Assembly: GCA_963807335.1 (NCBI GenBank)
Contig: CAWEBT010000009.1
Coordinates: 40,398 to 104,397 of the forward strand
Length of the DNA: 64,000 nucleotides
Origin: an uncultured Actinomycetota bacterium
GTDB taxonomy: Bacteria; Actinomycetota; Actinomycetes; Propionibacteriales; Nocardioidaceae
Direction: 5' to 3'
This document shows positions 1 through 63,501 of the stretch, in pieces. Under the pieces are notes generated by a model. It worked only from the letters and a program-made list of their open reading frames with translations. It searched no databases and had not been told where the DNA came from. The translations under genes and the position numbers were made by a program. The first letter of the stretch is position 1. Each line of letters opens with the position of its first letter.

Positions 1-937
1 GGGAGAGTGGATCCCCTGTCGCCACCAGGGTCGTGAGCAGGGTGAGACAGTCGCCCAGCTCAGCGTCGGTCATCGGCACCGTCGGCAGGTCGTGTGCCGG
101 TGCGACGCCGGCACCTCCGGCTGGGAACTCGAACGCCACTGCTGTGTCCTCGTCGGCCGGGTCGTCCCAGGACAGCACCTTGGCGATCGCTCCCCGCCCT
201 TCGCGCACAAGTCCGAGACGCGGGTACGCGTCACTGCGTTGGCCTGGTCCCGTGACGGCGACCGTCACGGTGATCGGCAGCAGGAGGTCGACCACTCCCG
301 GCGTGGACTCCGCGCCCGTGCTGTCGAGGAACGTCTGTACGCCCTGTGCGTCGACCTTGAGCACTCGCAGGTTGTTCAGCGTGATGGCGGCATCGGGCAG
401 GGGGTGGGTCGGAGGGGCGCCCGAGACGACCTCGACGATCGTTCCGTGCCCAGCAGCCCCTGAGGCCAAGGGTCCTGCGCCTTGGTGCGACGCGACGTCA
501 CCTCCTCGGGTGGCGGTCACCGTGACGGTGACGTTTCCCTCGGTGCCGGGCCAGCGCGCCACGAACCGCGCCGAGGAGTTGCCGACCGGGATACGGACCT
601 CGTTGATTGCGGCCGTGTTGTTGGGGAACCTGTGCACGCGCGACACATAGAGGCGCCGGCCCCCGTTGAGGAAGAAGGCCCGTGCGGCGTGCGCCAGGTA
701 CGGCGTTCGACCTCCCCGTCCGATGTCCAGCGGCCGAAGGCCGCCGTACACGCGCTCGAACTCCGCATAGCTCGTGATCAGCCGTGGTTCGCAGGCTCGC
801 GGGCCGCCCTGATAGCGAACGGGGCCGAAGTGCGTGAGGCCGGCGATGCCCGTGGTGGAGGTGGCGACTCCCTGAATCGACTTCGAGCGAAAGCTGACCT
901 CTTCGACGAATACGCCTGGTGCCAGGTACTCGGGCAT
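1..937 (-). CDS. Contractile tail sheath protein, N-terminal part (partial; continues beyond left edge)
   Basis: Absent from ORF track because it is open at the window edge. Hand translation from ATG (rc of 935-937): MPEYLAPGVFVEEVSFRSKSIQGVATSTTGIAGLTHFGPV..., the canonical N-terminus of phage/eCIS sheath proteins. Starts 22 nt after the stop of the upstream ORF; GC-rich third positions. Confidence 0.85.
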   Translation of the reverse strand, partial: MPEYLAPGVFVEEVSFRSKSIQGVATSTTGIAGLTHFGPVRYQGGPRACEPRLITSYAEFERVYGGLRPLDIGRGGRTPYLAHAARAFFLNGGRRLYVSRVHRFPNNTAAINEVRIPVGNSSARFVARWPGTEGNVTVTVTATRGGDVASHQGAGPLASGAAGHGTIVEVVSGAPPTHPLPDAAITLNNLRVLKVDAQGVQTFLDSTGAESTPGVVDLLLPITVTVAVTGPGQRSDAYPRLGLVREGRGAIAKVLSWDDPADEDTAVAFEFPAGGAGVAPAHDLPTVPMTDAELGDCLTLLTTLVATGDPLS

Positions 938-959
938 GTGGGCTCCTTTCGGGTGGTGC

Positions 960-1808
960 TCAATTCAGGACGACGGGGCTCGCCTGGGTGACGGTGCCCC
1001 GGGTGCAGCTCAGGGTTGTGGTGGCCTTGTCGACGTAGCCGTTCGGTGGTGTGGTCCCGTCGAGGACGGGGTCGTTGGACAGTGCCGCCACGACCTCTAC
1101 GGGCAAGTGCCTGAGTGGATCGAGGCCAAGGGTCAGCGCGTCGACCGGACTGTCGGAGGGCTGTGTGGAAGGAGCGGAGACAGTGAGGTCGACCCCCAGC
1201 GCGTCCCCAGCGGCTCGCACGAGCTCGACCGGGACCGCGCCGAGGACCACGACGTACTCGCCGTTCAGGTCGGTCTGGCCGAGCCAGGTGAGGGCGGTGG
1301 AGCCGGTCGGGCGGACGAGGATGCGGCCCCAGCACACCGGGTCACCGGTCGCCCACGTCACCCGGCCCCGGATCAGGGTGGCGCCGGCGGGCACGCCGTA
1401 ACGCACAGAGGGGAACATGACCGGACGGCACCTGCGTGGCACTGTGTTGTCCGACACCACCTGGGCCTCGGTGGGGACGGGCAGCGCTAGGCGTCGGGGG
1501 ACGAACCTTCCGTCGCGGTCGACCAGCCGGACCACGACCGTGGTCCGCAGGTCGGCCAGCGATTCTCCGAAGCTGATCGCATGGCGGGCAGACATCGTGC
1601 GGCGCAGCCGCGGCAGGCCCAGGGAATCGTCGATGCCGGCGCGGCCACGGCGCGGGCGGAAGGGCCTCGGGACGTCCTCGCTGAAGCACTCCAGGGTGGT
1701 GAGCCGACGCTCCTGCCCGGCGAGGTCGACCGGTGCGATGCCGAGCCGCAGACGTCTCACCCGCTCGGTCCAGATGGGGTCGAGGTAGACGTTCGTGGTC
1801 ACGTTCAT
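960..1808 (-). CDS. CIS-associated hypothetical protein with a carboxypeptidase-regulatory-like beta-sandwich segment
   Basis: 282-aa ORF whose start overlaps the stop of the DUF4255 gene (ATGA, 1805-1808). The segment GRVTWATGDPVCWGRILVRPTG...TDLNGEYVVVL resembles CarboxypepD_reg-type folds. Function unknown. Confidence 0.6.
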   Translation of the reverse strand: MNVTTNVYLDPIWTERVRRLRLGIAPVDLAGQERRLTTLECFSEDVPRPFRPRRGRAGIDDSLGLPRLRRTMSARHAISFGESLADLRTTVVVRLVDRDGRFVPRRLALPVPTEAQVVSDNTVPRRCRPVMFPSVRYGVPAGATLIRGRVTWATGDPVCWGRILVRPTGSTALTWLGQTDLNGEYVVVLGAVPVELVRAAGDALGVDLTVSAPSTQPSDSPVDALTLGLDPLRHLPVEVVAALSNDPVLDGTTPPNGYVDKATTTLSCTRGTVTQASPVVLN

Positions 1809-2422
1809 GAGCCACCGGCCGCCTGGCCCGCCAAGACCGGCCGAGTCCCTTGGATCTGGGTGAGCACGTCCGGCCCCGGGTCACCGTCGGTTGCGGTGAT
1901 CACCGCGATCCGGGCGAGGTAGGGGATGCTGAGGCGGAAGTCGCACGTCAGGCTCTCGAAGGTCCTCATCAGGTCGTCGGTGGCCATGTCCTCGAGATTG
2001 ACCTGCACCGACTCTCCGGGCGCCCAACCTCCGGTCGGCCAGAGCAACGGACCGCTCAGGGCTCCGATGTCGTCGAGGATCTGCATGGAGCGACCGATGA
2101 GCAAATGCTCCTCTTCGGCGTTGTCCGCCCAGGCCGTCAAGAGGTAGTGCAGGTCCACCGGGAGGTGTGCCCGGCCATCGACCGATCCGACGGCCGACCA
2201 GCTCGCCCGCATCGTCTTGTTGAAGTCGACCCGGTAGAGCAGGAGCGTGACGACCGGCACAGCCGGGGTAGAGGCTGCGTCGTCCAGGTCCTCGGTCTGG
2301 ATCAGCTTGGCGGTCGCGGTCTTGTCCTGGATGGGCTGCTGCACACCGAAGCGTGCGGTGAGGAGAGCCTCCAGGCTCTTGCCGACCGCGGCGACGCTTC
2401 GGAAGTTGGCCACGAGAGCCAC
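1805..2422 (-). CDS. DUF4255 (Pvc16/Afp16 N-terminal domain) protein
   Basis: Family signatures TLLLYRVDFNKTMR and LPVDLHYLLTAWADNAEEEHLLIGRSMQIL. Sits directly upstream of the sheath gene on the same strand. Confidence 0.85.
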   Translation of the reverse strand: MALVANFRSVAAVGKSLEALLTARFGVQQPIQDKTATAKLIQTEDLDDAASTPAVPVVTLLLYRVDFNKTMRASWSAVGSVDGRAHLPVDLHYLLTAWADNAEEEHLLIGRSMQILDDIGALSGPLLWPTGGWAPGESVQVNLEDMATDDLMRTFESLTCDFRLSIPYLARIAVITATDGDPGPDVLTQIQGTRPVLAGQAAGGS

Positions 2423-2460
2423 CCTTCGCCATGGGACGTCACGACACCGTCACCCGAGGC

Positions 2461-3297
2461 TCAGACCGCGGCGGCTCCTTGGATCGGCACGCCGAGTGGC
2501 TCGGTCCGGCGTCCCACGAACTCCCAGGGTCGGTTCAGAAAGTCGGAGAGATCCCATGGGGGGTCGATCCCGAGTTCGTTGCGCAGGAGATCGACGTACA
2601 GCTGGCAGCTCCGGCGTCCTTCGTTCCAGTTGCCCTCGGCGATGTGAGCGGCGATGAGCGCACGCTGCGCGCTGTCCCGGAAGGGTTCGATGCGGGCGGC
2701 GAGCATCGCAGCCTCGACCGCCTCGTGATGGCGGCCGCGCCGGGAGAGTGTGGGGCTCAGGGCCTCCAGCGCGTGCAGTACCCGGTGGCGCAGCCGCTCG
2801 CGCGACATGATCACCCACTCGTCGTACCAACCGGGGAGCAGCTCGAGGGCATCGAGGCTGCCTGGATGGATGTGGAGGTCGTCCTCCGTCGCCACGCCGC
2901 CCGCGACCCGACCGGCCCAGCGATCGATCGAGTCGATGTCGACGCTCACGTGCGGCGCAAGCCCGACGCACAGCTTGTCGACCTCCAGCAGGTCGACACC
3001 GGTGCCCCGCAGGCGCCAGATCGAGGAGCGCAGGTTGCCGGTCGCCCGCTCGTCGTCACCGTTGGGCCACAGGATGCCGGCAGCCCACTTTCGTTCGACG
3101 CGGCGCCGATGGAGCGCGAGTAGGACCAGCAGGCGCTTGCTGCCTTCGGGGATGCGCCCGGCAACCGAGCAGCCCTCCACCGGACTCTCGATCCGGAGGT
3201 CCCCGAGCAGGCACAGCCGACTGTGCGCGGGTATTCGCGCTCGCTGCTGTGGAGGCGACATGGACATCTGGCGTCCGATCGATTCGGCTCCCGACAA
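2461..3297 (-). CDS. Small SARP-type regulator (OmpR-like winged helix + BTAD)
   Basis: N-terminal LCLLGDLRIE...LLVLLALH...NLRSSIWRLR (trans_reg_C-like), then the BTAD-like helical domain LLPGWYDEWV...EAVEAAMLAARIEPFRDSAQRALIAAHIAEGN. The track start at 3297 is TTG; ATG at 3267 is an alternative. Confidence 0.8.
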   Translation of the reverse strand: MSGAESIGRQMSMSPPQQRARIPAHSRLCLLGDLRIESPVEGCSVAGRIPEGSKRLLVLLALHRRRVERKWAAGILWPNGDDERATGNLRSSIWRLRGTGVDLLEVDKLCVGLAPHVSVDIDSIDRWAGRVAGGVATEDDLHIHPGSLDALELLPGWYDEWVIMSRERLRHRVLHALEALSPTLSRRGRHHEAVEAAMLAARIEPFRDSAQRALIAAHIAEGNWNEGRRSCQLYVDLLRNELGIDPPWDLSDFLNRPWEFVGRRTEPLGVPIQGAAAV

Positions 3298-3311
3298 TGT
3301 GAGGGACCGGC

Positions 3312-3340
3312 CGTCTACAAGGCGTCACCACAACGTCACA
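3312..3340 (-). promoter_or_regulatory. Candidate SARP box: three direct heptamers at 11-bp spacing upstream of the SARP gene
   Basis: Plus strand CGTCTAC(3312) CGTCACC(3323) CGTCACA(3334); minus strand TGTGACG-N4-GGTGACG-N4-GTAGACG. Followed by CCCTCAC-N-TTG (plus 3299-3305 gtgaggg). Confidence 0.4.
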
Positions 3341-3354
3341 CGCTGCGAACAGAC

Positions 3355-3558
3355 TCATTCCACGCAATTGGTGCGGCAGAAGTCGACCAGGAATGCGCGT
3401 ACCCGGTCTAGTCCACGCTCCACCTCCACCTCGATCTCCTCCACCTCTCCGGCGGTGTCGAAGATGTCGACCCGGGTCACGATGTGCAGCACCAGACCGG
3501 TCGGTTCGCGACTGGCACGGATGATGCAGACGCCGCGAGGTTCGGGAGCGCGGGGCAT
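3355..3558 (-). CDS. Small hypothetical protein (67 aa from ATG 3558; track ORF extends to GTG 3627)
   Basis: GC-rich third positions from MPRAPEPRGVCIIRASREPTGLVLHIVTRVDIFDTAGEVEEIEVEVERGLDRVRAFLVDFCRTNCVE. A second heptamer pair and the same CCCTCAC motif lie just upstream of ATG 3558. No family recognised. Confidence 0.35.
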   Translation of the reverse strand: MPRAPEPRGVCIIRASREPTGLVLHIVTRVDIFDTAGEVEEIEVEVERGLDRVRAFLVDFCRTNCVE

Positions 3559-3579
3559 GGAGCAACAGTGAGGGCTCGC

Positions 3580-3597
3580 CGTCACCGGGTCGTGACC
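3580..3597 (-). promoter_or_regulatory. Second heptamer pair (CGTCACC-N4-CGTGACC) with the same downstream CCCTCAC motif
   Basis: Minus strand GGTCACG-ACCC-GGTGACG-GCGAG-CCCTCACTGTTG-CTCC-ATG. Parallels the architecture at 3299-3340. Confidence 0.35.
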
Positions 3598-3710
3598 CGA
3601 CGAACTGGGGATCAGGAAAGTTCGCACGTGGATATGGGGAGTGGCGCTCGGGTAACGGCAGGGTGACGAGAGCCCGCAAACAATGGCGCAATCCGATTCC
3701 AGGAGAGGCC

Positions 3711-5192
3711 ATGACTGACAACAAGGACCAACCGGGAGACCGGCCCAGCGGCGCCCCGGGCGCCACGGGGGACGGGCAGCCTGATGGGGACGAATCCACC
3801 GACTGCATACCGCGGAGCCGTCGTGACGACTACGAGTTCACTGGGTGCGGCTGCGGCGACTGCGATTCTGCGTCTCTCGAGATCCTCTGTCGTGCCGAGG
3901 GGATCAAGGCGCGCGCGGCGTACGACGCGGCGCATACGAGTGCACCGTCCCCGGAGCTCTACGAGTCGGCGCGACTGCGCTACGCACGATCCCGCTACGC
4001 CGTGACTTCCAGGCTGACCAACCTCCAGAAGACGCTCGACGATGCCATGCACGAGATCGGCTGCCGGATCGACGACGAGGACAAGGTCGACTGTCTGACG
4101 GCTGCGTGGAAAGAGGTCCGCCGGCGCCTGCGCAAGTGCCGTCCCGACGAGTGTTGCGTCGACGACTACGAGTTTCACGCAGGATCGGAGGATGCCCAGG
4201 TCGAGGATCTCCGCGCGAGAGTGGCCCGCTACGTCAGCGTCACCGGAGCCGCCGAGTGCTGCTTCACGCGACTGGCGAAGGAGCCCGAGCTGCTGGTCGA
4301 GCGAGTCGACGCGTTGACGGCCGAGATCGCGGCGATCCATCTGGCCCTCCACCCCGACGAGGCACCGGCACCCGCACCGGCACCGGCACCGTCGACGGCG
4401 GAGCCAGCAGCCCCCGCGCCGGCCGCCCACCCGCCAGGGGGCGCCGAGGGCGCTGCTGCGTCCGAGCCCGAGCCCGAGCCGGCGAAGCCTGACTGGCAGC
4501 ACCTGTACGCCGGGGCGCTCGTCGCCGCCTGGAAGCTGAAGAACGTCTACGTGGGGTTCGACGACCCGAAGGAGTACGTGGACTGCCTGTGCCAGGCGAT
4601 GAAGGTCGCGATGGCCGGCCACCAGATCCTGGCCGAGCTGCACGGCGAACTGCGCGTCCGCGAAGCCCGCTGGGAGCAGCGCAACAAGTGCTGCCGTCGT
4701 CACCGGGAGCACGCCGCCAACGAGATCATCTCCGGCTACGTCCGGTGCCTGCGAGAGGGGCTGGAGCCGGAGGAGCCCGAGGACACCGATGACGACTGTG
4801 ACGACGACTGCGACGACGACAACCATCACCACACCCCCCGACCCGGCCGCGATCGTAGGCGCCCACGGCGGCGTCGCGACTACGACGACGATGTCGACGT
4901 TCGCGTCCGGGTCGACGTGGACATCGACGACGAGGACGATGACCACCGGCACGGTGGGCACCGGCGCGACCACCACGGTGATGACCACAGGCATGGCGAT
5001 GGCCATGGACGTGGCGACGACGACCGGCGCGGAGACGACGACGGTTATGACGAGGACGATTACGACGAGGACGAGGACATCGATGAGGACGACGAGCCGA
5101 GCGAGAAGCGTCCTCGCAGGGCATCTCGTCCCGCTCCGGCCCGCAAGCGGGCAGCAGCGAAGCCGAAGAGCGGCCGCACGACCCGACGCTGA
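3711..5192 (+). CDS. Orphan Cys-rich helical protein with an Ala/Pro linker and an extreme Asp/His/Arg low-complexity C-terminal tail
   Basis: ATG 3711 preceded by aggagag. Third positions are GC-rich but with more A/T-ending codons than neighbours. About 19 Cys by hand count (CGCGDC, ECC, ECC, CLC, KCC). APAPAPAPAP linker. Tail DDDCDDDCDDDNHHH...RDRRRPRRRRDYDDDVDVRVRVDVDIDDEDDDHRHGGHRRDHHGDDHRHGDGHGRGDDD. No signal peptide. No family recognised. Confidence 0.75.
   Translation: MTDNKDQPGDRPSGAPGATGDGQPDGDESTDCIPRSRRDDYEFTGCGCGDCDSASLEILCRAEGIKARAAYDAAHTSAPSPELYESARLRYARSRYAVTSRLTNLQKTLDDAMHEIGCRIDDEDKVDCLTAAWKEVRRRLRKCRPDECCVDDYEFHAGSEDAQVEDLRARVARYVSVTGAAECCFTRLAKEPELLVERVDALTAEIAAIHLALHPDEAPAPAPAPAPSTAEPAAPAPAAHPPGGAEGAAASEPEPEPAKPDWQHLYAGALVAAWKLKNVYVGFDDPKEYVDCLCQAMKVAMAGHQILAELHGELRVREARWEQRNKCCRRHREHAANEIISGYVRCLREGLEPEEPEDTDDDCDDDCDDDNHHHTPRPGRDRRRPRRRRDYDDDVDVRVRVDVDIDDEDDDHRHGGHRRDHHGDDHRHGDGHGRGDDDRRGDDDGYDEDDYDEDEDIDEDDEPSEKRPRRASRPAPARKRAAAKPKSGRTTRR
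4786..5100 (+). repeat. GAC/CAC/CGN-rich low-complexity coding tract (Asp/His/Arg tail)
   Basis: Runs of gac gac gac tg(t/c), cac cac, cgg/cgc codons. These generate spurious Thr-rich and Arg-rich ORFs in the other frames (for example 4789..5250). Confidence 0.7.
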
Positions 5193-5204
5193 GGGGGAAA
5201 TGTC

Positions 5205-7310
5205 ATGCCGGGGAAGAAGGAAGGCAACGTCGAGGCTCCCTTCCGGGTGATGACGGCGAACGTCCAGTCGTTCCCTGTCCGGGCGATCACGCCGGGCGAG
5301 GCGCTCGAAGACCTCAGGAAGAACGCCGCCGACGCAGACCTGGTCTTCCTTCAGGAGATCGTTGCCCGATACCGCCCATTGGTGAGCGAGTCGTTCGCGG
5401 CGCCCGACTGGGAGGTCTACTACGGCAAGACCGACAACCACGAGCCCATCGCCTTTCGTACCGACCTCTTCTCGAAGGTCGCGGGCCAGGCGATCCAGGT
5501 CCATCCCGCCAACTCGCTGCACGACCGGCGGTACACCACTCACTTGCGCCTGCGCTACAAGCCGCTCGGCACGGACCTGCATGCGACCAACCTCCACCTG
5601 GTCGCCGGGGCCTACAACGCTCCGCACATGGACGACGACGAGGAGCGCAAGCGCGAGTGGGACACCGGGATCGAGATCCATCGCGATTTCATCGAGAGTC
5701 TCGTTCAGACCCGGCTCCCGGTGGTGGGTGGCGGTGACTACAACCGCCAGCTCAGGCAGTGCAAGGCGCTCGGCAGCGAGATCGACGGTCGGCGTGTCCG
5801 GTACGCCGTGGACAAGGGCTCGATCGACCTGCTCTGGTTCATCGACGGAGACGATGCTGCCTGGGATGTCCGGTCCACGAAGGTCTACCCCGGCCGCCGA
5901 TGGAGCAACCCCGAACGGCACAGCGACCACAGTGCTCGGTCGGCGACGGTCCTTCTGGGCGATGTCGAGGCCCCGATCGAGGTGCCGAAGCATCCGCCGT
6001 TCCAGCTCACGGAGTTCGGTGACAAGACGCCGAAGAGGATGGACTGGAAGACGCGGGCGGCTCTGGAGGTGGCGCAGCGAAGACTCGGCTACCCGCTCAC
6101 CATCGTCCAAGGTTGCTACAACCAGGGCGCTGTCTCCGCTTCCGCGGGGACGCACGACGGAGGGGGCGTCGTCGACCTCATCGCCTATGACCGGGAACGC
6201 AAGGTTCGGGTGCTTCGCGAGATCGGTTTCGCTGCGTGGTACCGGCCGACGATCAAAGGTCTGTGGGGCGAGCACATCCACGCGGTCCTCATCGACCATG
6301 GGCGCCTGGCCTCGTCCGCAGCCCGTCAGGTCGACTCCTATCGACGCGGCCGGGATGGCCTCAAGGGCGACCGTTCCGATCCGACGTGGCGTCCCAAGCC
6401 CATCTCGGTGTTCGTCTATCCGCCACCGGCGGCTCCGTCGGGGACGCCGTCCGGTCCGCCTCCCGACGTGGTCCAACCGACTTCCGTGCCGTTCCCCCCA
6501 CGCCGCACTCTGGACGGCGTCGACACCAGCCACTACCAGGGTGGCCGGATCGACGTGAAGGCGGCTCAGGCTGCCGGCCTGAAGTTCTGGTACCTCAAGA
6601 CGACCGAGGGCGACTCCATCGTGGATCGCACCTACAAGTCCCGGATCAGACAGGCGAGGCAAGCGGGTGTACCGGTCGGCTCGTACCACTTCGCGCGACC
6701 GGATCTGGGTGACGCCGGGCGGGAGGCGCTGTTCTTCCTGTCCAATGCGGACATCAGGGCCGGCGACATGATCCCGATGCTCGATCTGGAGTCTTTGGAG
6801 GGGCTCTCACCAACCCAGGTGACGTCATGGGCGGGGACTTGGGTGGCCACGGTCACCAAGGAGCTGACCGCGAAGGGGCTCTCGGCGAAGCCCATCATCT
6901 ACACCCGGTTCGACCTCGGCAGCGGCTTCGGGTGCTACCTCTGGGTGGCGCGATACAGCAACGACAAGCTCGCTCCCCGGATCCCCAAGCCGTGGCGCAA
7001 GGCGGTGATCTGGCAGCACTCCGACGGCCGGTACGGACCGATCAAGCACGTCCCGGGGTTCGGGGCGGTCGATGTGAACGCGCTGCACCCCGACATTCCA
7101 CTGTCCGCCTTGCGGATCAGGCGGGTGGGGGTGGCTCCGAGCCCTGGCTCGCCTGTTCCTCCCACCCGGCCGGGCCGGCCGCACCGACCCCCGGATCAGG
7201 GCGGAGGGCCCAGGCCCCAGGGCAACCTCGGCCTCGAGGCGGTGCTCGACGAGCTGCGCGCCGGTGTGAAGTCCATGCAGTCCGCCCTCGACAAGCTCCC
7301 GAAGAGGTAA
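5205..7310 (+). CDS. Three-domain enzyme: N-terminal endonuclease/exonuclease/phosphatase (EEP), central LAS/M15-like Zn-peptidase-like domain, C-terminal GH25 muramidase
   Basis: EEP: FRVMTANVQSF...LVFLQEI...GGGDYN...SDHSA. Centre: SAGTHDGGGVVDL ... WGEHIHAV (H-x-D and HxH-type motifs). GH25: LDGVDTSHYQGGRIDVKAAQAAGLKFWYLKTTEGDSIVDRTYKSRIRQARQAGVPVGSYHFARP. No signal peptide. Starts 12 nt after the upstream stop, with gggggaa as RBS. Confidence 0.85.
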   Translation: MPGKKEGNVEAPFRVMTANVQSFPVRAITPGEALEDLRKNAADADLVFLQEIVARYRPLVSESFAAPDWEVYYGKTDNHEPIAFRTDLFSKVAGQAIQVHPANSLHDRRYTTHLRLRYKPLGTDLHATNLHLVAGAYNAPHMDDDEERKREWDTGIEIHRDFIESLVQTRLPVVGGGDYNRQLRQCKALGSEIDGRRVRYAVDKGSIDLLWFIDGDDAAWDVRSTKVYPGRRWSNPERHSDHSARSATVLLGDVEAPIEVPKHPPFQLTEFGDKTPKRMDWKTRAALEVAQRRLGYPLTIVQGCYNQGAVSASAGTHDGGGVVDLIAYDRERKVRVLREIGFAAWYRPTIKGLWGEHIHAVLIDHGRLASSAARQVDSYRRGRDGLKGDRSDPTWRPKPISVFVYPPPAAPSGTPSGPPPDVVQPTSVPFPPRRTLDGVDTSHYQGGRIDVKAAQAAGLKFWYLKTTEGDSIVDRTYKSRIRQARQAGVPVGSYHFARPDLGDAGREALFFLSNADIRAGDMIPMLDLESLEGLSPTQVTSWAGTWVATVTKELTAKGLSAKPIIYTRFDLGSGFGCYLWVARYSNDKLAPRIPKPWRKAVIWQHSDGRYGPIKHVPGFGAVDVNALHPDIPLSALRIRRVGVAPSPGSPVPPTRPGRPHRPPDQGGGPRPQGNLGLEAVLDELRAGVKSMQSALDKLPKR

Positions 7311-7313
7311 GCC

Positions 7314-7643
7314 ATGAATGCTTTCGCCCCCATCGCCGATCTGTTGCGCTCGCTACCCAGCCCTGTCCGAAGGACCTTCTACACGCTCTTGACGGCCGTG
7401 GGTGCCGTGCTCGCGGCGTTGAAGGGCTTCGGCGTCACCGACCTCGGCCCAATCACGCTGAACCAGGCACTGGCGGCATACACGTATGCGTCGTCGGCTA
7501 TCGGCCTGGTGGCCGTCTCCAACGTCAAGCGGCCCGACGACGAGGGCGCGTCGTACGTCGACTACTACGAAGACGATGTGGACCTGTCGGACTTCGAACC
7601 GGTCGGCGACGGTGAGGACGTCTACGGTCAAGCAGCGTGGTGA
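7314..7643 (+). CDS. Holin-like small membrane protein (two predicted TM helices, strongly acidic C-terminal tail)
   Basis: Starts 3 nt after the muramidase stop (gaggtaagcc ATG). TM candidates TFYTLLTAVGAVLAALKGFGV and ALAAYTYASSAIGLVAVSNV. Tail DDEGASYVDYYEDDVDLSDFEPVGDGEDVY. Holin assignment rests on position and topology only. Confidence 0.55.
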   Translation: MNAFAPIADLLRSLPSPVRRTFYTLLTAVGAVLAALKGFGVTDLGPITLNQALAAYTYASSAIGLVAVSNVKRPDDEGASYVDYYEDDVDLSDFEPVGDGEDVYGQAAW

Positions 7644-37167: not shown

Positions 37168-37367
37168 CCCTAACCGTTCAACGCCCTGCGATGCCGCCCG
37201 GGTTCAGTCGGCCCGGCACTGCTCTCGTGCCTCTTCAGGATGCAACGTCGGCTCGGAGGCCGGAAGTGGGAACGACCCACGAGGCGCGCCGGACGGTCCT
37301 TCGTCGACCCGGGTAGCCTCTCGCCAGACCGCTCGCCCGGCTCGGGCACGACGAGAGGATCCAACCC

Positions 37368-38681
37368 ATGCACGTCCTGACCCGCCTGACGGCTCTCGCC
37401 GCGGCCTCGTGCCTGACCGTGGCTGGCCTCGCCGCGCCGTCGGTGGCGGAGCCCTCCGCCCCGCAGGCTGCCCGCGCGGCCACGTCGGTCGTCGCGCCCG
37501 GCCCGTTCACGGGATACGGCTTCGACGCCTGCACGGCTCCCGACCAGGCGACCATGGACGCGTGGCGGCTCTCCTCGCCGTTCGCCGCCGTCGGCATCTA
37601 CACCGGTGGCAGCAACCGGCTGTGCGCGCAGCCCGAGCTCACCGCCGACTGGGTCCGCACGCAGGCCGCCGCCGGCTGGCACCTGATGCCGATCCACGTG
37701 GGCCCCCAGGCCTCCTGCACGGCGTACGACAGCGTGATGTCCGCCGACCGGCCGACCGCGGAGGCCCAGGGCCGCGCCGAGGCGGCCGCCGCCGTCGCCT
37801 CTGTCCAGTCCCTCGCCATCGGGTCCGGCAGCACGCTGTACTACGACCTCGAGGACTACGACATCACCGACCAGACCTGTCGCCGGGCGGCGCTGTCGTT
37901 CCTGTCCGGGTGGACCCAGCAGCTGCATGCGCAGGGCTACCGCTCCGGCGTCTACTCGAACATCGCTGCGGCCATCACGTCGCTCGACCTCGCCAACAAC
38001 CTCTCGAAGGGCTCCTACGTGATGCCCGACGACATCTGGTTCGCGTGGGACAACGGCGCTGCCGACACCGACGCGGGCAGCTGGGTGACCACCTCCGAGT
38101 GGGACGACCACGAGCGCGCCCACCAGTACCTCCTCGACGCCTGGCAGACCCACGGTGGTGTGACCCGGAAGATCGACCTGAACTGGGTCGACGTGGACGG
38201 TGGCTCCACCGCCGCGAAGGACACCAAGAAGTGCCGGGGCGTCCAGGTCGACCAGCGGAAGTACCCGCGACTCCGTCCCGGCTCGCGCGGCAAGCACGTC
38301 AAGGCCCTGCAGTGCGTGCTGCGCAAGCAGCACCTCGGCAAGCCGGCCACCAGCGGCCGCTACGACAAGGCGACGGCCCGTGCGGTCAAGAAGGCCCAGC
38401 GCAGGCTCGGACAGAAGGTCACCGGCAAGGTCACCCGCAAGACCTGGACCGCCCTGCACGCCCGCGGCTCCCAGCCGCTGCTGAAGGTCGGCTCCACCGG
38501 CGAGCCCGTACGCCGCATCCAGCGTGCGCTGACCTCCGCCCTGGGCAAGAAGGTGCGCATCGACGGGGTGATGAGCGTACGGACCCGTGCGGCGGTGACC
38601 AGGCTCCAGCAGCGCAGGCAACTGGACCCCACCGGCAACGTCGACACCGCGACCTGGGAACGGCTCGCCGCCGGCGGCTGA
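37368..38681 (+). CDS. Secreted DUF1906 (Rv2525c-like glycoside-hydrolase-like) protein with two C-terminal peptidoglycan-binding (PG_binding_1) repeats
   Basis: Signal peptide MHVLTRLTALAAASCLTVAGLAAPSVAEP. GYGFDACTAP...AVGIYTGG...YYDLEDY. C-terminal LRPGSRGKHVKALQCVL and LKVGSTGEPVRRIQRAL. Confidence 0.8.
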   Translation: MHVLTRLTALAAASCLTVAGLAAPSVAEPSAPQAARAATSVVAPGPFTGYGFDACTAPDQATMDAWRLSSPFAAVGIYTGGSNRLCAQPELTADWVRTQAAAGWHLMPIHVGPQASCTAYDSVMSADRPTAEAQGRAEAAAAVASVQSLAIGSGSTLYYDLEDYDITDQTCRRAALSFLSGWTQQLHAQGYRSGVYSNIAAAITSLDLANNLSKGSYVMPDDIWFAWDNGAADTDAGSWVTTSEWDDHERAHQYLLDAWQTHGGVTRKIDLNWVDVDGGSTAAKDTKKCRGVQVDQRKYPRLRPGSRGKHVKALQCVLRKQHLGKPATSGRYDKATARAVKKAQRRLGQKVTGKVTRKTWTALHARGSQPLLKVGSTGEPVRRIQRALTSALGKKVRIDGVMSVRTRAAVTRLQQRRQLDPTGNVDTATWERLAAGG

Positions 38682-39984: not shown

Positions 39985-41160
39985 CTAGTCCGTGGCCGGT
40001 GGGCCGCCGAGGGCGGTCAGGTCGACCGTGTTCTCCGGCAGCGCGGTCACCGGTTCGACGATGGCCTCGAACCCGTTGGTCTCGCCCGCGAGGGCGGTGA
40101 GGTTCGCCGGCTCGTACCCGCCGTCCTGGTAGTGGGTGACCGCACTGCTGGCCACCCGGACGGACAGCGCTCGCTCGTTGGTGAGGCGACGCAGCCCTCC
40201 ACTGAATGCGTCAGCATGCTGCCCGTTGCCGACCTTCTGCTTCGACCTGAGGTACAGGTTGTGGGCCTTGAACATGCGGTTCAGCGGACTGTGCCGGATG
40301 GCGTCGGAGCCGCTGTCTACGTAGTGGGTCAACAGCGGAACGTCGAAGACGAGGCCGGCATCGTGGGCCTCGCGTGCCATCCAGAGCAACGAGGTGTCCG
40401 ACAGGCCGGTCTCGCGGTAGCCGCCTCCGACGTCGGAGTGCGCCCCTTCGAACCACACCTGTTTGACCCGATCGTTCTCGGTCGATGTCCCCGCACCGTC
40501 GTCGGCGGCCTCCCAGAACGTGGGGGCGAACTTGAGACGGGTCTCGTCCACGGCCAGCGCATGCCGGGCGCGAAGCACTTGGCCGCTCAGCTGGATGTCG
40601 TGGAACCGAGGTGCGTGCCGCATGAAGCCGGGTACGCCGAGCGCGCCCACGGTGTCGAACACGCCGAGGAACGTCACCGCGGCCGGGTGGCAGTGGTCGT
40701 GCTTGAACTCGTCGACACTCGCGCCGAATGCCCCCGAGGGCATGTCCTTGCGCTGGTACAGGTTGACGGCCGCCGGAAGCTTCTCCTCCACGAGGGACAG
40801 CTTGGTGAGCAGCCCTACCCGCCCGACCATGCCCGCGACCGAACGGGCCGTGTAGGCGCCCCGGCTGAATCCGATGATGAAGACCTCGTCGCCCGGTTCG
40901 TAGTTCTGGGCGAGGAACCGGTAGCACGCGATCACGTTGTGGAACAGCCCGAAACCGAAGGCACCACCCAGGAGCCGGTCGGCCGCGTAGCTCCCGGCGC
41001 CCACGCCGCTGACGTAGTAGACGAGCTGGTAGGCCCCGCCGGCCGCGGCTGGGTCGCTCTGCACCGTGCGCGCCATCTTCTCGACGTTGGTGATGGTCTC
41101 GTTGTCCGGCTTGTTCCACGTCCCGTCGCAGCAGACCACCAGGCGCTTCATACCGTCCAT
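39985..41160 (-). CDS. DUF2235 alpha/beta-hydrolase (Tle1-like lipase fold) protein
   Basis: KRLVVCCDGTWN, VFIIGFSRGAYTARS (GxSxG), FLGVFDTVGALG, WFEGAHSDVGGGY. Start ATG 41160 or 41151. Confidence 0.8.
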   Translation of the reverse strand: MDGMKRLVVCCDGTWNKPDNETITNVEKMARTVQSDPAAAGGAYQLVYYVSGVGAGSYAADRLLGGAFGFGLFHNVIACYRFLAQNYEPGDEVFIIGFSRGAYTARSVAGMVGRVGLLTKLSLVEEKLPAAVNLYQRKDMPSGAFGASVDEFKHDHCHPAAVTFLGVFDTVGALGVPGFMRHAPRFHDIQLSGQVLRARHALAVDETRLKFAPTFWEAADDGAGTSTENDRVKQVWFEGAHSDVGGGYRETGLSDTSLLWMAREAHDAGLVFDVPLLTHYVDSGSDAIRHSPLNRMFKAHNLYLRSKQKVGNGQHADAFSGGLRRLTNERALSVRVASSAVTHYQDGGYEPANLTALAGETNGFEAIVEPVTALPENTVDLTALGGPPATD

Positions 41161-41221
41161 GGTCGCAAACCTCACGCCGTCAGTCACGACCCAACGGACA
41201 TCGGTGGGGGAGCGCTGCGAC

Positions 41222-41731
41222 CTACCGCCCCGACCGAGCGCTCTCGGTGACGTAGGTAGCCAGGTTGTCCAGGGTCTGCCGACCACCCTCGACCGCGTGG
41301 TACTTGTCGACCGCCTCGTCGCGCTGCTCCTTGGTGGGGAACACCGTGCGCATCTCGATCCGGGTCGCGCTGCCGTCGGAGCCGTCTGCCGCGAAGGTGA
41401 GGACCGATTCGAAGGTGTTCGGGTCGCCAGGGAACTCACCGTGGCGCAAGGCGATCCGGTCCGGCGAGACGATCTCGGTCCAGGAGATCCACTCCTGGTA
41501 GTCCGTCCCGTCCGGTCCGTGCATCACGAAGTCCCACTCCCCGCCGACGCGGAACTCGAACGACCGCGTGGTGGTCGTGAACCCCTCCGGCCCCCACCAG
41601 TGCGACAGGTGCCGCACCGCGGTGAACGCCTCGAACACCAGCGCCCGGGGCGCACTGATGACCCGCGAGATCACGGTCTCGCGGTCGGCCGTCGCTGACT
41701 GCGCCGGCAGGTCCCGTTCTGTCGATCCCAT
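41222..41731 (-). CDS. SRPBCC / AHSA1-like (START-fold) protein
   Basis: ISRVISAPRALVFEAFT...HLSHWWGPEGF...; paired with an upstream ArsR regulator as is common for this family. Confidence 0.85.
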   Translation of the reverse strand: MGSTERDLPAQSATADRETVISRVISAPRALVFEAFTAVRHLSHWWGPEGFTTTTRSFEFRVGGEWDFVMHGPDGTDYQEWISWTEIVSPDRIALRHGEFPGDPNTFESVLTFAADGSDGSATRIEMRTVFPTKEQRDEAVDKYHAVEGGRQTLDNLATYVTESARSGR

Positions 41732-60633: not shown

Positions 60634-63471
60634 CTATTCGCGGCCGAGCACGCCGAGCAGGCCGAGCTTGTCAGCGACTGCACGCGTCCCGAGGTCGAGG
60701 GCCTCGTCGAGGGTGAGTGCCGCACCCGCGGAGCGCGCGGCCTGAAGGTCGGCCGGCGCCAGGGCGGCGAGCGCGGACGCCGTTCGACGCTCACGGAAAC
60801 GCACGTCCGCGGGGACCGCGACGGACTCATCCTCGGCCAGGGCCGCGTCGGCGGCGGCGAGCAGCGTCGCGGTGAGGGCCGGCTCGTCCCGGTGCACCGC
60901 GAGCACCGCCATCGTCTCGAGGCACTCGACAAGCCGATATCGCTGGCCGGCTCGGCGAAGCACCCCCAGAGCGGACCGGAGGTGGTCGGAGGCCTGCCCG
61001 TGCTCCCGCTCGGCCAGCGCCACGTCGGCCAGGCAACGCAGCACCAGCGCCCGCTCGACGGGGTCCGTCTCGATGGCGAGGCTCTCCTCGAGGCACGACC
61101 GGGCCCTTGGGGTGTCGTCGAGGTCGAGGGCGATCATGGCGCGGTTCACGAGCGACAGGGTCAGCGGCAACGCCGGATCCGCGAGCCGGCGACGCAGTGC
61201 GATGGCCTCGTCCATCATCGGCGCCGCCTCTTCGGGTCGCCCGAGGTCACGGGTCAGTCCGCCGAGGGTGTTGAGCGCGCGGGCGGCCCATGCCGGGTCG
61301 TCGGCCTCATTGATGCGCGCGTAGGCCTCGCGACTGTGCCTGAGGGCCTCGTCGGCGTGACCCCGCTCGCCCTGGCAGATTGCCATCGCATGATGGGCCC
61401 TGCCCACGGTGAGAGCGGGCGCGTCCGGGGCCAGGTCGATGGCGCGGGGCAACCACGCCACGTCCTCGGACCCGGGGCTGGTGTGGTACCAGTAGATCCC
61501 TTGCGCGGCCGCCAGTCGCAACAGCAGCTCCGGCGCGGTCCGGTCGTCGGACTCCGCGCGTCCGGCCAGCCACGTCATCGCGGCGCGCATGTTGCCGCGG
61601 TCCTTGGCCAGCCTGTCGAACCACGCGGCACGCTGGGGGCCTCGCATCCCGACCAGCGAGTCCTCCGCGACGTGTAGCTGCCACTCGGCGTGCGCGTCGG
61701 CGGTCTCGGCGAGATCCCCGGCCAGCAGCTCCAAGGCGTACTCGCGCACCGTCTCCAGCATGCCGAACCGACCCGAACCGTCGACGTGGAGGAGGCTCAC
61801 GCGGGTCAGGCCGGTGAGCACGCCCTCGTCCGCCCCGGCGACCCGGGCCGCGGCGTCAGCATCGAAGCCACCGACGAACACTCCCAGCCTCCGGAAGGCC
61901 GCCGTTTCTGGAGCGGTGAGGAGGTCCACGCTCCATGCGACGGCTCCGCGCAGGCTGCGTTGTCTGGTCGTGCGGTCCCTCATCTCGTACGACGCCAGCT
62001 CCAGCCGGGCGAGCAGGCCGCTGGACATGTCGGCCAGACTGATCTCGTCGGCGCGGGCGGCCGCCAGCTCAAGCGCCAGCGGCATCCGGTCGAGCGTCGC
62101 GCAGACCTGCGCGATCACGTTCGTGGCACCGGCGTCGAACCACGGCGCGACCTCGCGCGCCCGGGCCGCGAACAGCGGGATCGCATCGGCCTCCTCCAGC
62201 GGTCCCACCACCCGCACGTGCTCGCCGTACACCTGGAGCCGCTTGCGGCTGGTGACCAGGGCGCAGACGTCTGCCGCCGACTCGAGGAGCTCGGAGACCA
62301 CCGGTGCGGCCTCGTCCACCTGCTCGAAGTTGTCCAGCAGGAGGAGCATCCGCCGTGTCGCCAGGTGCCTTCTCAAAGGAGTGAGGAAGTCGTCGCCGGC
62401 CTCGTCCACCTCCAGCGTCCCGGCGATCGCCTGCAGCACCAACGCGGGGTCGCGCACGTCGGCGAGGCCCACGAACCAGACCCCGTCGGGGAAGTCGGCG
62501 GCCAGCTCGTGGGCCACGGCCAGGGCGAGACGGGTCTTGCCGATGCCCCCGGGACCCGTCAGCGTCACCAGACGCACGTCCGGCTCGCGCAGCAGCGCCA
62601 CCAGCTCACCGATCTCGGACGCCCTGCCGAAGAAGCGGGTGGTGGCGGCCGGAAGCCTGCGGCGTCCACGCACTGCCGCATCGTCCACCCGCAGGGCAGG
62701 GTCGTCCACGAGCACGCGCTGGTGCAGGTCGAGCAGCTCCTGACCGGGTTCCAGACCGGTCTCGTCCACCTTGGCCCGGCGGAGCCGGGCGAGCTCCGCG
62801 AGCGCGTCCGCTTGGCGGCCCGTGCGGTGCAGAGCCAGCACCAAGGGGCCGACAAGGTCCTCGCGAAGGGGATGGCGCGCGACGACCTCCTCCAGCTCGG
62901 GCACCAGGTCGCGGTGTCGGCCCTGCTGCAGGAGCGCCTCAGCCCTCAGCGCCACGACCTCCAGGCGCCGTTCGTCAAGGCCGACCGCGACCTGGTCGAG
63001 TGCTGGTAGGTGGCGTAGGTCCGCCCACGCCTCGCCCCGCCACAGCCCCAGTGCCTCCTCCGTTGCCGCTGCGACCTCGACGAGGTCGCCCGCCACGTAC
63101 GCCGCTCTGGCCCGCTCGTAGTCGGAGCCGAACCGCGCGAGGTCTACCTGATCGGGTGCCACCACCAGCTGGTAGGCCTTTCCGACGGTCTCGAGTAGCG
63201 CCCCGCCACCACCACGTGGGGCCAACACCTTGCGGAGCGCCGAGACGTGGACCTGCAGGTTCCGCACCGGATCGCGGGGAGGGTCAGCCGGCCAGAGCTC
63301 GTCGATCAGGCGCTCGACCGTCACGGCGTGTGGTGCTGCCCGCAGCAGTAGCCCCAGCAGCGCGCGGCGCAACGGAGGTCCGAGATCGACGGCCTGCGCT
63401 CCGGCCTGTACCTCGAGGGGACCCAGCGCGGCGAAGTACAGCGGCGCTTGGTCGGGCGGCTCCCCCTGCAT
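60634..63471 (-). CDS. Large AfsR/SARP-family regulator (winged helix + BTAD + NB-ARC ATPase + TPR)
   Basis: YFAALGPLEVQAG...RRALLGLLLR...NLQVHVSALRKVL; BTAD; Walker A LTGPGGIGKTRLA; LLLLDNFEQV; C-terminal TPR-like helices. Confidence 0.9.
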   Translation of the reverse strand: MQGEPPDQAPLYFAALGPLEVQAGAQAVDLGPPLRRALLGLLLRAAPHAVTVERLIDELWPADPPRDPVRNLQVHVSALRKVLAPRGGGGALLETVGKAYQLVVAPDQVDLARFGSDYERARAAYVAGDLVEVAAATEEALGLWRGEAWADLRHLPALDQVAVGLDERRLEVVALRAEALLQQGRHRDLVPELEEVVARHPLREDLVGPLVLALHRTGRQADALAELARLRRAKVDETGLEPGQELLDLHQRVLVDDPALRVDDAAVRGRRRLPAATTRFFGRASEIGELVALLREPDVRLVTLTGPGGIGKTRLALAVAHELAADFPDGVWFVGLADVRDPALVLQAIAGTLEVDEAGDDFLTPLRRHLATRRMLLLLDNFEQVDEAAPVVSELLESAADVCALVTSRKRLQVYGEHVRVVGPLEEADAIPLFAARAREVAPWFDAGATNVIAQVCATLDRMPLALELAAARADEISLADMSSGLLARLELASYEMRDRTTRQRSLRGAVAWSVDLLTAPETAAFRRLGVFVGGFDADAAARVAGADEGVLTGLTRVSLLHVDGSGRFGMLETVREYALELLAGDLAETADAHAEWQLHVAEDSLVGMRGPQRAAWFDRLAKDRGNMRAAMTWLAGRAESDDRTAPELLLRLAAAQGIYWYHTSPGSEDVAWLPRAIDLAPDAPALTVGRAHHAMAICQGERGHADEALRHSREAYARINEADDPAWAARALNTLGGLTRDLGRPEEAAPMMDEAIALRRRLADPALPLTLSLVNRAMIALDLDDTPRARSCLEESLAIETDPVERALVLRCLADVALAEREHGQASDHLRSALGVLRRAGQRYRLVECLETMAVLAVHRDEPALTATLLAAADAALAEDESVAVPADVRFRERRTASALAALAPADLQAARSAGAALTLDEALDLGTRAVADKLGLLGVLGRE

Positions 63472-63501
63472 GGGCTCATTATGCGCAGCCCGGGCCGCCG
63501 G

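What the first reader, a model, noticed from the sequence alone, without database searches (positions are those of the whole stretch)
3298..7643. Three-gene operon (orphan Cys-rich polyampholyte protein, EEP-peptidase-muramidase, holin-like protein) set head-to-head with a contractile-injection-system locus
Seen:
- The three plus-strand genes are separated by 12 nt and 3 nt, each with its own purine-rich RBS, so they look co-transcribed.
- They diverge from the minus-strand SARP / DUF4255 / sheath unit across about 400 bp. That spacer carries repeated heptamer boxes.
- I saw no capsid, terminase, portal or integrase gene anywhere in the window.

Established:
- R/F-type tailocins, and some extracellular CIS, are released by dedicated holin-endolysin cassettes.
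- The CIS characterised in Streptomyces act intracellularly. As far as I recall they have no dedicated lysis cassette.

Inference:
- This operon may be a dedicated autolysis/release or cell-death execution module for an actinobacterial CIS.
- The uncharacterised first gene could be cargo, scaffold or regulator.
- I do not recognise the combination as a described system.
Basis: partly seen in the sequence, partly recalled or inferred. Interest (0 to 1): 0.75.

Follow-up and report, generated by a model that had tools for sequence, protein, structure and literature searches.

The report
Injection-system accessory gene beside unrelated lysis pair
The supposed three-gene operon is two separate things placed side by side: a newly recognised cysteine-rich accessory gene that travels with one lineage of actinobacterial phage-tail-like injection systems, and a wall-degrading enzyme plus small membrane protein pair found across Nocardioides genomes with no link to such systems.

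Summary
The gene spacing (12 nt and 3 nt), the ribosome-binding sites, the head-to-head layout and the heptamer boxes are all real. The functional reading holds only in part.

- **Gene 1 (3711-5192)** is not an orphan. It belongs to a family of about 130 cluster representatives. In 20 of 20 genome or assembly loci and 40 of 48 assessable metagenome loci, it sits divergently next to the Pvc16_N/DUF4255-sheath operon of a contractile injection system (CIS).
- **Genes 2 and 3 (5205-7643)** form a conserved pair: an EEP / LAS-like / GH25 enzyme and a 2-TM protein. All six other Nocardioides contexts examined are ordinary chromosomal sites, with no CIS or phage structural genes. None of about 100 related CIS loci carries the pair.
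- **The "400-bp spacer"** contains a conserved 67-aa gene. It also carries SARP-type heptamer repeats with an 11-nt period. These repeats mark four promoters: the CIS operon, the SARP gene, the small gene and gene 1.
- **In this genome only**, the lysis-like pair lies 12 nt behind gene 1 with no promoter of its own. It may therefore be co-expressed with the CIS as a strain-specific accident or co-option. It is not a dedicated, conserved CIS release module.
- **Gene 1** has a confident all-helical model with no known fold match. It is rich in Cys and His, so it probably binds metal. Its role is unknown.

The parts
2..937 (-). N-terminal 312 aa of CIS sheath protein 1; the gene runs off the left edge of the window
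   Evidence: Translation starts MPEYLAPGVFVEE. PHROG tail sheath match, E=3.5e-6. 72-87% identical to the Phage_sheath_1 genes of L003/L004.
960..1808 (-). Conserved 282-aa protein of unknown function between Pvc16_N and the sheath gene
   Evidence: No Pfam, PHROG or NCBIfam hit. A homologue occupies the same position in most related loci.
1805..2422 (-). Pvc16_N / DUF4255 tail-terminator-like protein, first gene of the CIS structural operon
   Evidence: Pfam PF14065, E=1.6e-21. Alignment A7.
2437..2454 (+). Tandem heptamers CGTCACG-N4-CGTCACC (11-nt period) just upstream of the Pvc16_N gene; putative SARP site
   Evidence: The same position is occupied in L003, L025-L029 and L009.
2461..3297 (-). 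Small SARP-type activator with a BTAD domain; the true start is probably ATG 3267
   Evidence: Pfam PF03704, E=5.4e-11. 63-71% identical to the gene at the same position in L003 and L025.
3312..3340 (+). Three heptamers (CGTCTAC, CGTCACC, CGTCACA) at an 11-nt period, upstream of the SARP gene
   Evidence: Triple repeats at the same place in L003 and L025.
3355..3558 (-). Conserved 67-aa gene inside the supposed spacer; function unknown
   Evidence: Same length and 60% identity in L003. Homologues in 21 metagenome loci. Coding-like codon-position pattern, with differences concentrated at third positions.
3580..3597 (+). Heptamer pair CGTCACC-N4-CGTGACC, 21 nt upstream of the small gene's ATG
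3651..3668 (-). Heptamer pair in the opposite orientation (CGTCACC-N4-CGTTACC on the minus strand), 42 nt upstream of the gene 1 ATG; putative SARP site for gene 1
   Evidence: One-mismatch hit. Conserved in L003 (9940-9956) and L025 (9741-9758).
3711..5192 (+). Gene 1: 493-aa Cys-rich all-helical protein with a D/R/H-rich disordered tail; CIS-linked accessory family
5205..7310 (+). Gene 2: 701-aa cytoplasmic three-domain enzyme. EEP fold (13-253), LAS-like domain (268-400, motif only), GH25 muramidase (438-640), C-terminal helix (678-696)
   Evidence: No hydrophobic segment or signal peptide.
7314..7643 (+). Gene 3: 109-aa protein with two TM segments and an acidic C-terminal tail; holin-like partner of gene 2

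Best explanation
The region holds two independent units that happen to adjoin.

**Unit A (2-5192): the regulatory head of an actinobacterial CIS locus.**
- A small SARP activator recognises tandem heptamers (CGTSACN, 11-nt period).
- The heptamers lie upstream of four transcription units: the Pvc16_N-sheath structural operon, the SARP gene itself, a 67-aa gene and gene 1. The four are presumably switched on together. This step is inferred from site positions, not shown.
- Gene 1 encodes a cytoplasmic, all-helical protein with a median of 16 Cys across the family, often with His/Asp-rich tails. I infer that it binds metal and acts as an accessory factor of this CIS lineage, in assembly, loading or sensing. 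It is neither a structural tail protein nor a lysis protein.

**Unit B (5205-7643): a self-contained Nocardioides gene pair that works like a phage endolysin-holin pair.**
- The enzyme has no signal peptide. It carries a GH25 muramidase, a probable LAS-type peptidase and an EEP phosphodiesterase or nuclease domain.
- A small 2-TM protein is translationally coupled to it and presumably gives it access to the cell wall (inferred).
- The pair is inherited and moved independently of any CIS.

**In this genome.** Unit B sits 12 nt behind gene 1 without a promoter of its own, so it is probably transcribed by read-through. I regard this as incidental adjacency, not a conserved CIS release module.
For: **Gene 1 and the CIS**
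- The gene 1 family has 132 representatives at E<=1e-3.
- In 13 of 13 genome loci, plus L003/L004 and L025-L029, gene 1 lies divergently next to Pvc16_N - unknown - sheath - gp19 - sheath - gp19 - CIS_tube - GPD.
- 40 of 48 assessable metagenome Pvc16_N loci have gene 1, always on the opposite strand, 0.12-2.6 kb upstream.

**Heptamer boxes**
- There are 3 exact matches in 64 kb, all within 2437-3596, against 0.22 expected.
- 5 of 7 one-mismatch hits fall in the same 1.2 kb.
- Positions are conserved in L003, L025-L029 and L009.

**Genes 2 and 3**
- More than 180 homologues, many full-length at 50-65% identity in Nocardioides.
- In six contexts (about five distinct neighbourhoods) the gene 2 orthologue is followed 5-7 nt later by a gene 3 orthologue. 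Neighbours include katG, the dnaK operon and a 5'-nucleotidase. No gene 1, CIS or phage structural genes are present.
- The gene 2 HMM hits 0 of 80 metagenome CIS loci. tblastn finds no gene 2 or gene 3 hit in L003-L017 or in L025. The called genes of L025-L029 show nothing of the kind.
- Catalytic residues of the GH25 and EEP domains and the H-x6-D/H-x-H motif are invariant in 34 homologues. The folds are confirmed.
- Other loci have a TTGACC-type element upstream of gene 2. The window has none.
Against: - The 12-nt gap, the absence of a detectable terminator and the absence of an own promoter element mean that genes 2 and 3 are very likely co-expressed with gene 1 here. That could be functional rather than incidental.
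- In the closest relative (L003), gene 1 is likewise followed by a signal-less hydrolase (S8 peptidase) and then a TM protein.
- In L010 and L102 a DUF4157/eCIS_core protein is translationally coupled to gene 1. The slot behind gene 1 can therefore hold CIS-related payload genes.
- Only six gene 2 contexts were inspected.
- Whether those genomes carry a CIS elsewhere is unknown.
- SARP binding, metal binding by gene 1 and membrane permeabilisation by gene 3 are all inferred.
Confidence: 0.68

Rival explanations
1. Strain-specific co-option. In this organism the autonomous endolysin-holin-like pair has been captured behind gene 1 and is expressed from the SARP-controlled gene 1 promoter. Induction of the CIS would then be coupled to lysis of the producer, releasing particles or executing cell death.
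For: - 12-nt and 3-nt gaps with no terminator-like site between the genes.
- No own promoter element, unlike L020, L022 and L023.
- A SARP heptamer pair lies 42 nt upstream of gene 1 and is conserved in relatives.
- Released tailocins and extracellular CIS are known to depend on cell lysis (Geller et al. 2021, PMC8213781, read).
Against: - The adjacency is seen only in this species (window, L001, L002).
- It is absent from the nearest gene 1 relatives at 56-57% identity and from about 100 CIS loci.
- The pair is conserved elsewhere without a neighbouring CIS.
- There are no expression data.
Confidence: 0.2
2. Gene 2 is a CIS payload (an eCIS-associated toxin that attacks the cell walls of target bacteria). 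Gene 3 is its accessory or immunity protein. The region behind gene 1 is a variable effector slot.
For: - The slot behind gene 1 varies between relatives. It holds an S8 peptidase in L003 and DUF4157/eCIS_core proteins in L010 and L102.
- Peptidoglycan hydrolases are among validated eCIS toxins (PMC8213781).
- Gene 2 has no signal peptide.
Against: - Gene 2 has no DUF4157/eCIS_core domain.
- At 701 aa with three folded domains it is large for tube loading.
- The gene 2-3 pair is conserved at 50-65% identity in loci with no CIS within 10 kb.
- Most gene 1 genes are followed by a convergent gene, so no effector slot is present.
Confidence: 0.08
3. Genes 2 and 3 are the lysis cassette of a decayed prophage, unrelated to the CIS.
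For: - The GH25 domain matches phage endolysin PHROGs (E=2e-29) and phage endolysins at 30-36% identity.
- The EEP domain resembles a hypothetical protein of Streptomyces phage Yosif.
Against: - There is no full-length match in 50,697 phage records, and gene 3 has no match at all.
- No phage structural, integrase or terminase genes were seen around any of the six orthologues or among the window ORFs scanned. The nearest exception is an HNH endonuclease gene about 1.6 kb downstream in L020/L021.
- The pair is conserved across many Nocardioides species, partly with conserved flanks (L022/L023), as expected of a resident chromosomal gene pair.
Confidence: 0.04

Closest known systems
Phage and tailocin endolysin-holin lysis cassettes (for example actinophage LysA plus holin, or the R-pyocin hol/lys genes)
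   Same: - A signal-less muralytic enzyme with more than one lytic domain (GH25 plus a probable LAS peptidase).
- It is followed within 3-7 nt by a small 2-TM protein with a charged C-terminus.
   Different: - The pair is not part of a phage or tailocin in any of the six other contexts.
- It has an extra N-terminal EEP domain.
- The gene 3 tail is acidic rather than basic, and it matches a holin PHROG only weakly (E=0.0035).
- The order is enzyme first, then membrane protein.
Extracellular CIS loci of the Afp/PVC type with BTAD or GerE regulators and DUF4157-linked toxins (Geller et al. 2021, PMC8213781)
   Same: - DUF4255 terminator, sheath, gp19 tube, CIS_tube and VgrG-like GPD genes.
- An adjacent BTAD regulator, which that paper describes as an eCIS "shell" domain.
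- DUF4157 proteins at the operon head in some relatives.
   Different: - The operon starts with DUF4255.
- It has two alternating sheath/tube pairs.
- A divergent Cys-rich gene (gene 1) that matches no Pfam family is a near-constant neighbour.
Streptomyces cytoplasmic CIS (CIS-Sc/CIS-Sv; Casu et al. 2023, PMC10066040; Vladimirov et al. 2023, PMC10020575; CisA, PMC12237407)
   Same: - An actinobacterial CIS with divergent promoters and an adjacent transcriptional regulator.
- Proposed roles in cell death, with no canonical lysis cassette.
   Different: - The gene order differs: the Streptomyces sheath operon is sco4253-sco4251, described with a single sheath gene.
- Its effectors Sco4256-4258 and CisA are membrane proteins, whereas gene 1 has no TM segment.
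- Whether the present CIS is cytoplasmic or released is unknown.
SARP (Streptomyces antibiotic regulatory protein) operators
   Same: Direct heptamer repeats at an 11-nt period close to the promoters of the regulated genes (from my own knowledge of ActII-ORF4/DnrI-type sites). The regulator is a small BTAD protein.
   Different: - The heptamer is CGTSACN rather than TCGAGNN.
- The targets are CIS genes rather than antibiotic clusters.
- Binding has not been tested.

Membership tests
Endolysin-holin lysis cassette | A peptidoglycan-degrading enzyme with intact catalytic residues | tested here: met
   - GH25 Pfam E=1.9e-28.
- PDB profile match to 2x8r and 1jfx.
- Model TM 0.75-0.77 to GH25 structures.
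- D440, D527 and E529 are invariant.
Endolysin-holin lysis cassette | The enzyme lacks a secretion signal and therefore depends on a membrane partner | tested here: met
   No hydrophobic segment in gene 2 on a Kyte-Doolittle scan. The N-terminus MPGKKEGNVEAPFRV is polar.
Endolysin-holin lysis cassette | An adjacent small membrane protein homologous to a known holin family | tested here: inconclusive
   - Two TM-like segments, at residues 25-41 and 52-68.
- Only a weak PHROG holin hit, E=0.0035.
- No Pfam or NCBIfam hit and no phage tblastn hit.
Endolysin-holin lysis cassette | Causes lysis of the producing cell | not testable with these tools
   This needs induction and deletion experiments.
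Dedicated lysis/release module of a CIS or tailocin locus | Conserved co-occurrence of the lysis genes with the tail-like structural genes | tested here: not met
   - None of the six gene 2-3 contexts has CIS genes within 10 kb.
- None of about 100 related CIS loci has gene 2 or gene 3.
Contractile injection system locus (eCIS/CIS) | Sheath, tube, DUF4255 terminator and VgrG-like spike genes in one cluster, without head genes | tested here: met
   - The window holds Pvc16_N and the start of the sheath gene.
- Syntenic relatives continue with sheath, gp19, sheath, gp19, CIS_tube and GPD.
- No head genes among the window ORFs scanned.
- The leftward continuation of this contig could not be fetched.
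eCIS-associated toxin (criteria of Geller et al. 2021) | A DUF4157/eCIS_core domain in the protein or in the adjacent gene, and a position at the 3' end of the structural operon | tested here: not met
   - No PF13699 in genes 1-3. An HMM built from L010 and L102 gave no hit in the window.
- The genes lie at the head of the locus, on the opposite strand.
SARP-regulated promoters | Direct heptamer repeats at an 11-nt period next to the promoters, plus a SARP gene in the cluster | tested here: met
   Protein-DNA binding itself is not testable here.
LAS-type (M15-like) zinc peptidase, middle domain of gene 2 | Recognisable homology or fold match to a LAS peptidase, with the H-x(3-6)-D and H-x-H zinc ligands | tested here: inconclusive
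   - The motif H317-x6-D324 ... H357-x-H359 is invariant in 34 homologues.
- The domain is confidently folded.
- Pfam, PHROG and PDB sequence searches found nothing.
- The top 50 fold matches were taken up by the EEP and GH25 domains.

The most novel reading that the evidence does not exclude
Two readings remain open, and could both be true.

1. Gene 1 founds an undescribed family of Cys/His-rich, metal-binding helical proteins. The family would be a required, SARP-co-regulated factor of a widespread actinobacterial CIS lineage, for example a redox or metal sensor that licenses assembly or firing, or a loading factor for DUF4157 effectors.
2. In this Nocardioides-like strain the CIS regulon has captured a resident endolysin-holin-like pair. 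A Gram-positive CIS would thereby become a lysis-released, extracellular weapon.
Probability: 0.2. Interest if true: 0.7.

Novelty: new variant of a known kind. Interest (0 to 1): 0.42.

Why it matters
- **For CIS biology.** Actinobacterial CIS are poorly understood: how they are triggered, loaded and, if at all, released. This work identifies a near-constant, co-regulated accessory gene with no known fold, plus a clear SARP operator architecture. Both give concrete targets for deletion, pull-down and EMSA experiments in a lineage distinct from the Streptomyces model systems.
- **As a caution about adjacency.** Tight spacing does not prove a shared function. The lysis-like pair is a separate Nocardioides module.
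- **For the lysis-like pair itself.** Its own role is unstudied. It could act in autolysis, wall remodelling or holin-dependent export of a three-domain hydrolase carrying an unusual EEP domain.

Tried and rejected
- **Extending the contig leftward.** Exact-protein look-ups of window genes returned only short Logan contigs. The 255-kb source contig was never served.
- **First homology search with full-length gene 1.** It gave only 3 hits, probably because the low-complexity tail filled the candidate list. An exhaustive search with the core solved this. A profile search through the word index again gave only 11 hits.
- **Genome scan with the 42-sequence alignment.** A 12-sequence alignment worked.
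- **Family libraries for gene 1, the 67-aa ORF and the 282-aa protein.** Pfam, NCBIfam, PHROG and PADLOC gave nothing.
- **Fold searches of the gene 1 model.** PDB and BFVD gave only generic helical-bundle noise (best E 0.29 and 0.44). The weak bacterioferritin and tape-measure hits are not evidence.
- **Tape-measure reading of gene 1.** Rejected, because the model is a compact, confident bundle (pTM 0.81) of about 300 residues.
- **CisA/Sco4256-like reading of gene 1.** Rejected, because it has no TM segment.
- **Promoter and terminator consensus scan.** Uninformative in this 68% GC DNA.
- **Right-flank synteny.** The exonuclease, O-methyltransferase and PfkB genes have no counterpart in other loci, so no clean insertion scar could be defined.
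- **Literature searches.** Searches for a Cys-rich CIS-associated protein or for SARP control of CIS found nothing relevant.


Full report
**1. What is at the coordinates**

The window is 68-70% GC. The minus strand of its left end carries four genes:
- the first 312 codons of a tail-sheath gene, cut by the window edge (2-937);
- a conserved 282-aa unknown (960-1808);
- a Pvc16_N/DUF4255 gene (1805-2422);
- a small BTAD/SARP regulator (2461-3297).

The plus strand carries three ORFs:
- 3711-5192, 493 aa, with ATG preceded by GGAGAGG;
- 5205-7310, 701 aa;
- 7314-7643, 109 aa.

The stated start of 3298 is only the edge of the SARP gene. The 493-aa product from 3711 is exactly what a public gene call records.

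**2. The "spacer" is not empty**

A 67-aa minus-strand ORF lies at 3355-3558.
- Its counterpart in locus L003 has the same length and is 60% identical.
- It has homologues in 21 metagenome loci.
- Its codon-position GC pattern is coding-like, and differences are concentrated at third positions.

The true divergent intergenic region is about 150 bp (3559-3710).

**3. The heptamer boxes are real and look like SARP operators**

- CGTSAC-N5-CGTSAC, meaning two heptamers at an 11-nt period, matches exactly 3 times in 64 kb against 0.22 expected.
- All three matches lie just upstream of minus-strand genes: 2437-2453 (Pvc16_N), 3323-3339 (the SARP gene, where a third heptamer starts at 3312) and 3580-3596 (the 67-aa gene).
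- With one mismatch allowed, 5 of 7 window hits fall in this 1.2 kb. They include an oppositely oriented pair at 3652-3668, 42 nt upstream of gene 1.
- The sites recur at the same relative positions in relatives whose DNA has diverged: L003/L004, L025-L029 and L009.

In each case the repeats read GTSACG on the sense strand of the downstream gene. I infer a single SARP regulon of four promoters. Binding itself was not tested.

**4. Gene 1 is a CIS-linked family, not an orphan**

*Family size.* The first search with the full-length protein found 3 hits. An exhaustive search with the ordered core (residues 28-360) found 132 cluster representatives at E<=1e-3, of which 83 were at E<=1e-10.

*Family features.*
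- Members have a median length of 330 aa and a median of 16 cysteines, with a fixed pattern of conserved Cys.
- 53 of 101 full-length members have C-terminal tails of at least 30 aa.
- 40 of those tails are at least 25% acidic, and 22 are at least 10% His, often with CGCG motifs. This suggests metal binding, by inference.
- No member matches a Pfam family beyond coiled-coil noise.

*Structure.* An AlphaFold2 model from an 83-sequence alignment is confident (pLDDT 90, pTM 0.81) and all-helical. It has no significant match in the PDB (best E 0.29) or BFVD (best E 0.44). The protein has no TM segment.

*Genomic context.*
- In 13 of 13 GTDB genome loci the gene lies divergently, 0.1-0.3 kb from a Pvc16_N gene. 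These loci come from Kutzneria, Streptomyces, Sciscionella, Jatrophihabitantaceae and other Actinomycetota MAGs. Where the fetched DNA reaches far enough, the Pvc16_N gene heads the operon unknown - sheath - gp19 - sheath - gp19 - CIS_tube - GPD. L006 and L014 are cut short.
- The same holds for the two closest relatives: P0001 (57% identity; L003, L004) and P0004 (56%; L025-L029).
- In the reverse test I used a Pvc16_N alignment to fetch 80 metagenome loci. Gene 1 was present in 40, always on the opposite strand, 0.12-2.6 kb upstream.
- Eight loci with at least 2.6 kb of upstream DNA lacked gene 1. In the seven I inspected, the upstream region held other genes, such as BTAD plus a small ORF, or a DUF4157 protein.
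- The remaining 32 loci were too short to judge.

**5. Genes 2 and 3 are an autonomous pair**

*Gene 2 domains.*
- A GH25 muramidase at 438-640 (Pfam E=1.9e-28).
- An EEP fold at 13-253 (Foldseek E about 1e-12 to EEP proteins such as TDP2).
- A folded middle domain at 268-400. Its only clue is the invariant motif H317-x6-D324...H357-x-H359. "Peptidase" is therefore plausible but unproven.
- No signal peptide.

*Distribution.* Gene 2 has more than 180 homologues. Many are full-length at 50-65% identity and are named as Nocardioides GH25 lysozymes.

*Contexts.* I inspected six contexts, forming about five distinct neighbourhoods: L018 (N. endophyticus), L019, L020/L021, L022, L023 and L024.
- In each, the orthologue is followed 5-7 nt later by a gene 3 orthologue at 42-56% identity, with two TM segments and a conserved acidic C-terminal motif.
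- Neighbours are housekeeping genes and mostly differ between contexts: katG, the dnaK-grpE-dnaJ operon, a 5'-nucleotidase and a sulfotransferase.
- None has gene 1, CIS genes or phage structural genes within 10 kb.

*Conversely,* no gene 2 or gene 3 homologue was found in the 20 genome or assembly CIS loci or in the 80 metagenome CIS loci. Phage records match only single domains of gene 2 and do not match gene 3 at all.

**6. What follows gene 1 elsewhere**

- Usually a convergent gene, so gene 1 is monocistronic.
- In L003, an S8 peptidase without a signal peptide, then a protein with an N-terminal TM segment.
- In L010 and L102, a large DUF4157/eCIS_core protein, translationally coupled to gene 1.
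- In L008, L011 and L094, BTAD regulators.

The slot is therefore variable and sometimes holds CIS payload-type genes. DUF4157 is the toxin-associated eCIS core domain of Geller et al. 2021 (PMC8213781).

**7. Interpretation**

The three genes are not one conserved functional unit. Gene 1 belongs to the CIS locus and probably to its SARP regulon. Genes 2 and 3 form a separate Nocardioides endolysin-holin-like pair.

In this genome the pair lies directly behind gene 1. It lacks the TTGACC-type upstream element seen in three orthologous loci, and no terminator-like site lies between the genes. Read-through transcription with gene 1 is therefore likely.

That leaves room for a strain-specific coupling of lysis to CIS expression, which I put at about 0.2, or for a payload role, at about 0.08.

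The rest of the window is ordinary metabolism. A complete prophage is therefore not indicated, although the leftward part of the contig could not be retrieved.

**8. Novelty**

- CIS loci with BTAD regulators are known (PMC8213781).
- Streptomyces CIS are characterised, but with a different gene order and membrane-bound effectors and CisA (PMC10066040, PMC10020575, PMC12237407).
- I found no description of a Cys-rich helical accessory gene or of SARP heptamer operators at CIS promoters.

I rate the whole as a new variant of a known kind, of moderate interest.

Noticed in passing
window 3355-3558 (-): A conserved 67-aa gene (MPRAPEPRGVCIIRASREPTGL...) lies between the SARP gene and gene 1. It is present in L003, L025 and 21 metagenome CIS loci. 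It matches no family in Pfam, PHROG or PADLOC, and it has its own heptamer pair upstream. It may be a partner of the SARP.
   Followed up: partly
window 960-1808 (-): A 282-aa protein with no family match sits between Pvc16_N and the first sheath gene. It keeps this position in most loci of this CIS lineage, so it may be an undescribed structural or assembly component.
   Followed up: partly
L010:11086-14262 (+), L102:1-2632 (-), L017:14171-17839 (-), L067:1-1446 (-), L073:254-4507 (+), L075:1273-2943 (+): Large DUF4157/eCIS_core proteins lie at the head end of the Pvc16_N operon. In L010 and L102 they are translationally coupled to the gene 1 homologue. In L067, L073 and L075 they occur in loci that lack gene 1. 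In this lineage the effector genes appear to sit at the operon head rather than at the 3' end.
   Followed up: partly
L018:12439-13515 (+) and L024:7365-8453 (+): In two Nocardioides loci the gene 2-3 pair is followed by a third conserved gene of about 360 aa. It has several hydrophobic segments and matches no Pfam family. The module may therefore have three genes in some species.
   Followed up: no
window 39985-41523 (-): A 512-aa protein with a strong T6SS_Tle1-like/DUF2235 phospholipase domain (Pfam E=5.8e-80) lies about 35 kb from the CIS head. I did not test for any link to the CIS.
   Followed up: no
window 37317-38681 (+): A second cell-wall enzyme candidate: an Rv2525c-like glycoside-hydrolase domain plus PG_binding_1. 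It accounts for the extra endolysin hits in the PHROG summary of the window.
   Followed up: no
window 60634-63534 (-): A large AfsR-type SARP (BTAD plus TPR, 966 aa) lies at the far end of the window. It is a second SARP-family regulator in the region.
   Followed up: no
L025-L029, about 13.0-15.0 kb: An AbiEii/AbiEi toxin-antitoxin pair and a second, convergent BTAD gene flank the gene 1 homologue P0004. One of these contigs (L027) carries a vOTU label, so CIS loci of this type can be mislabelled as viral.
   Followed up: no
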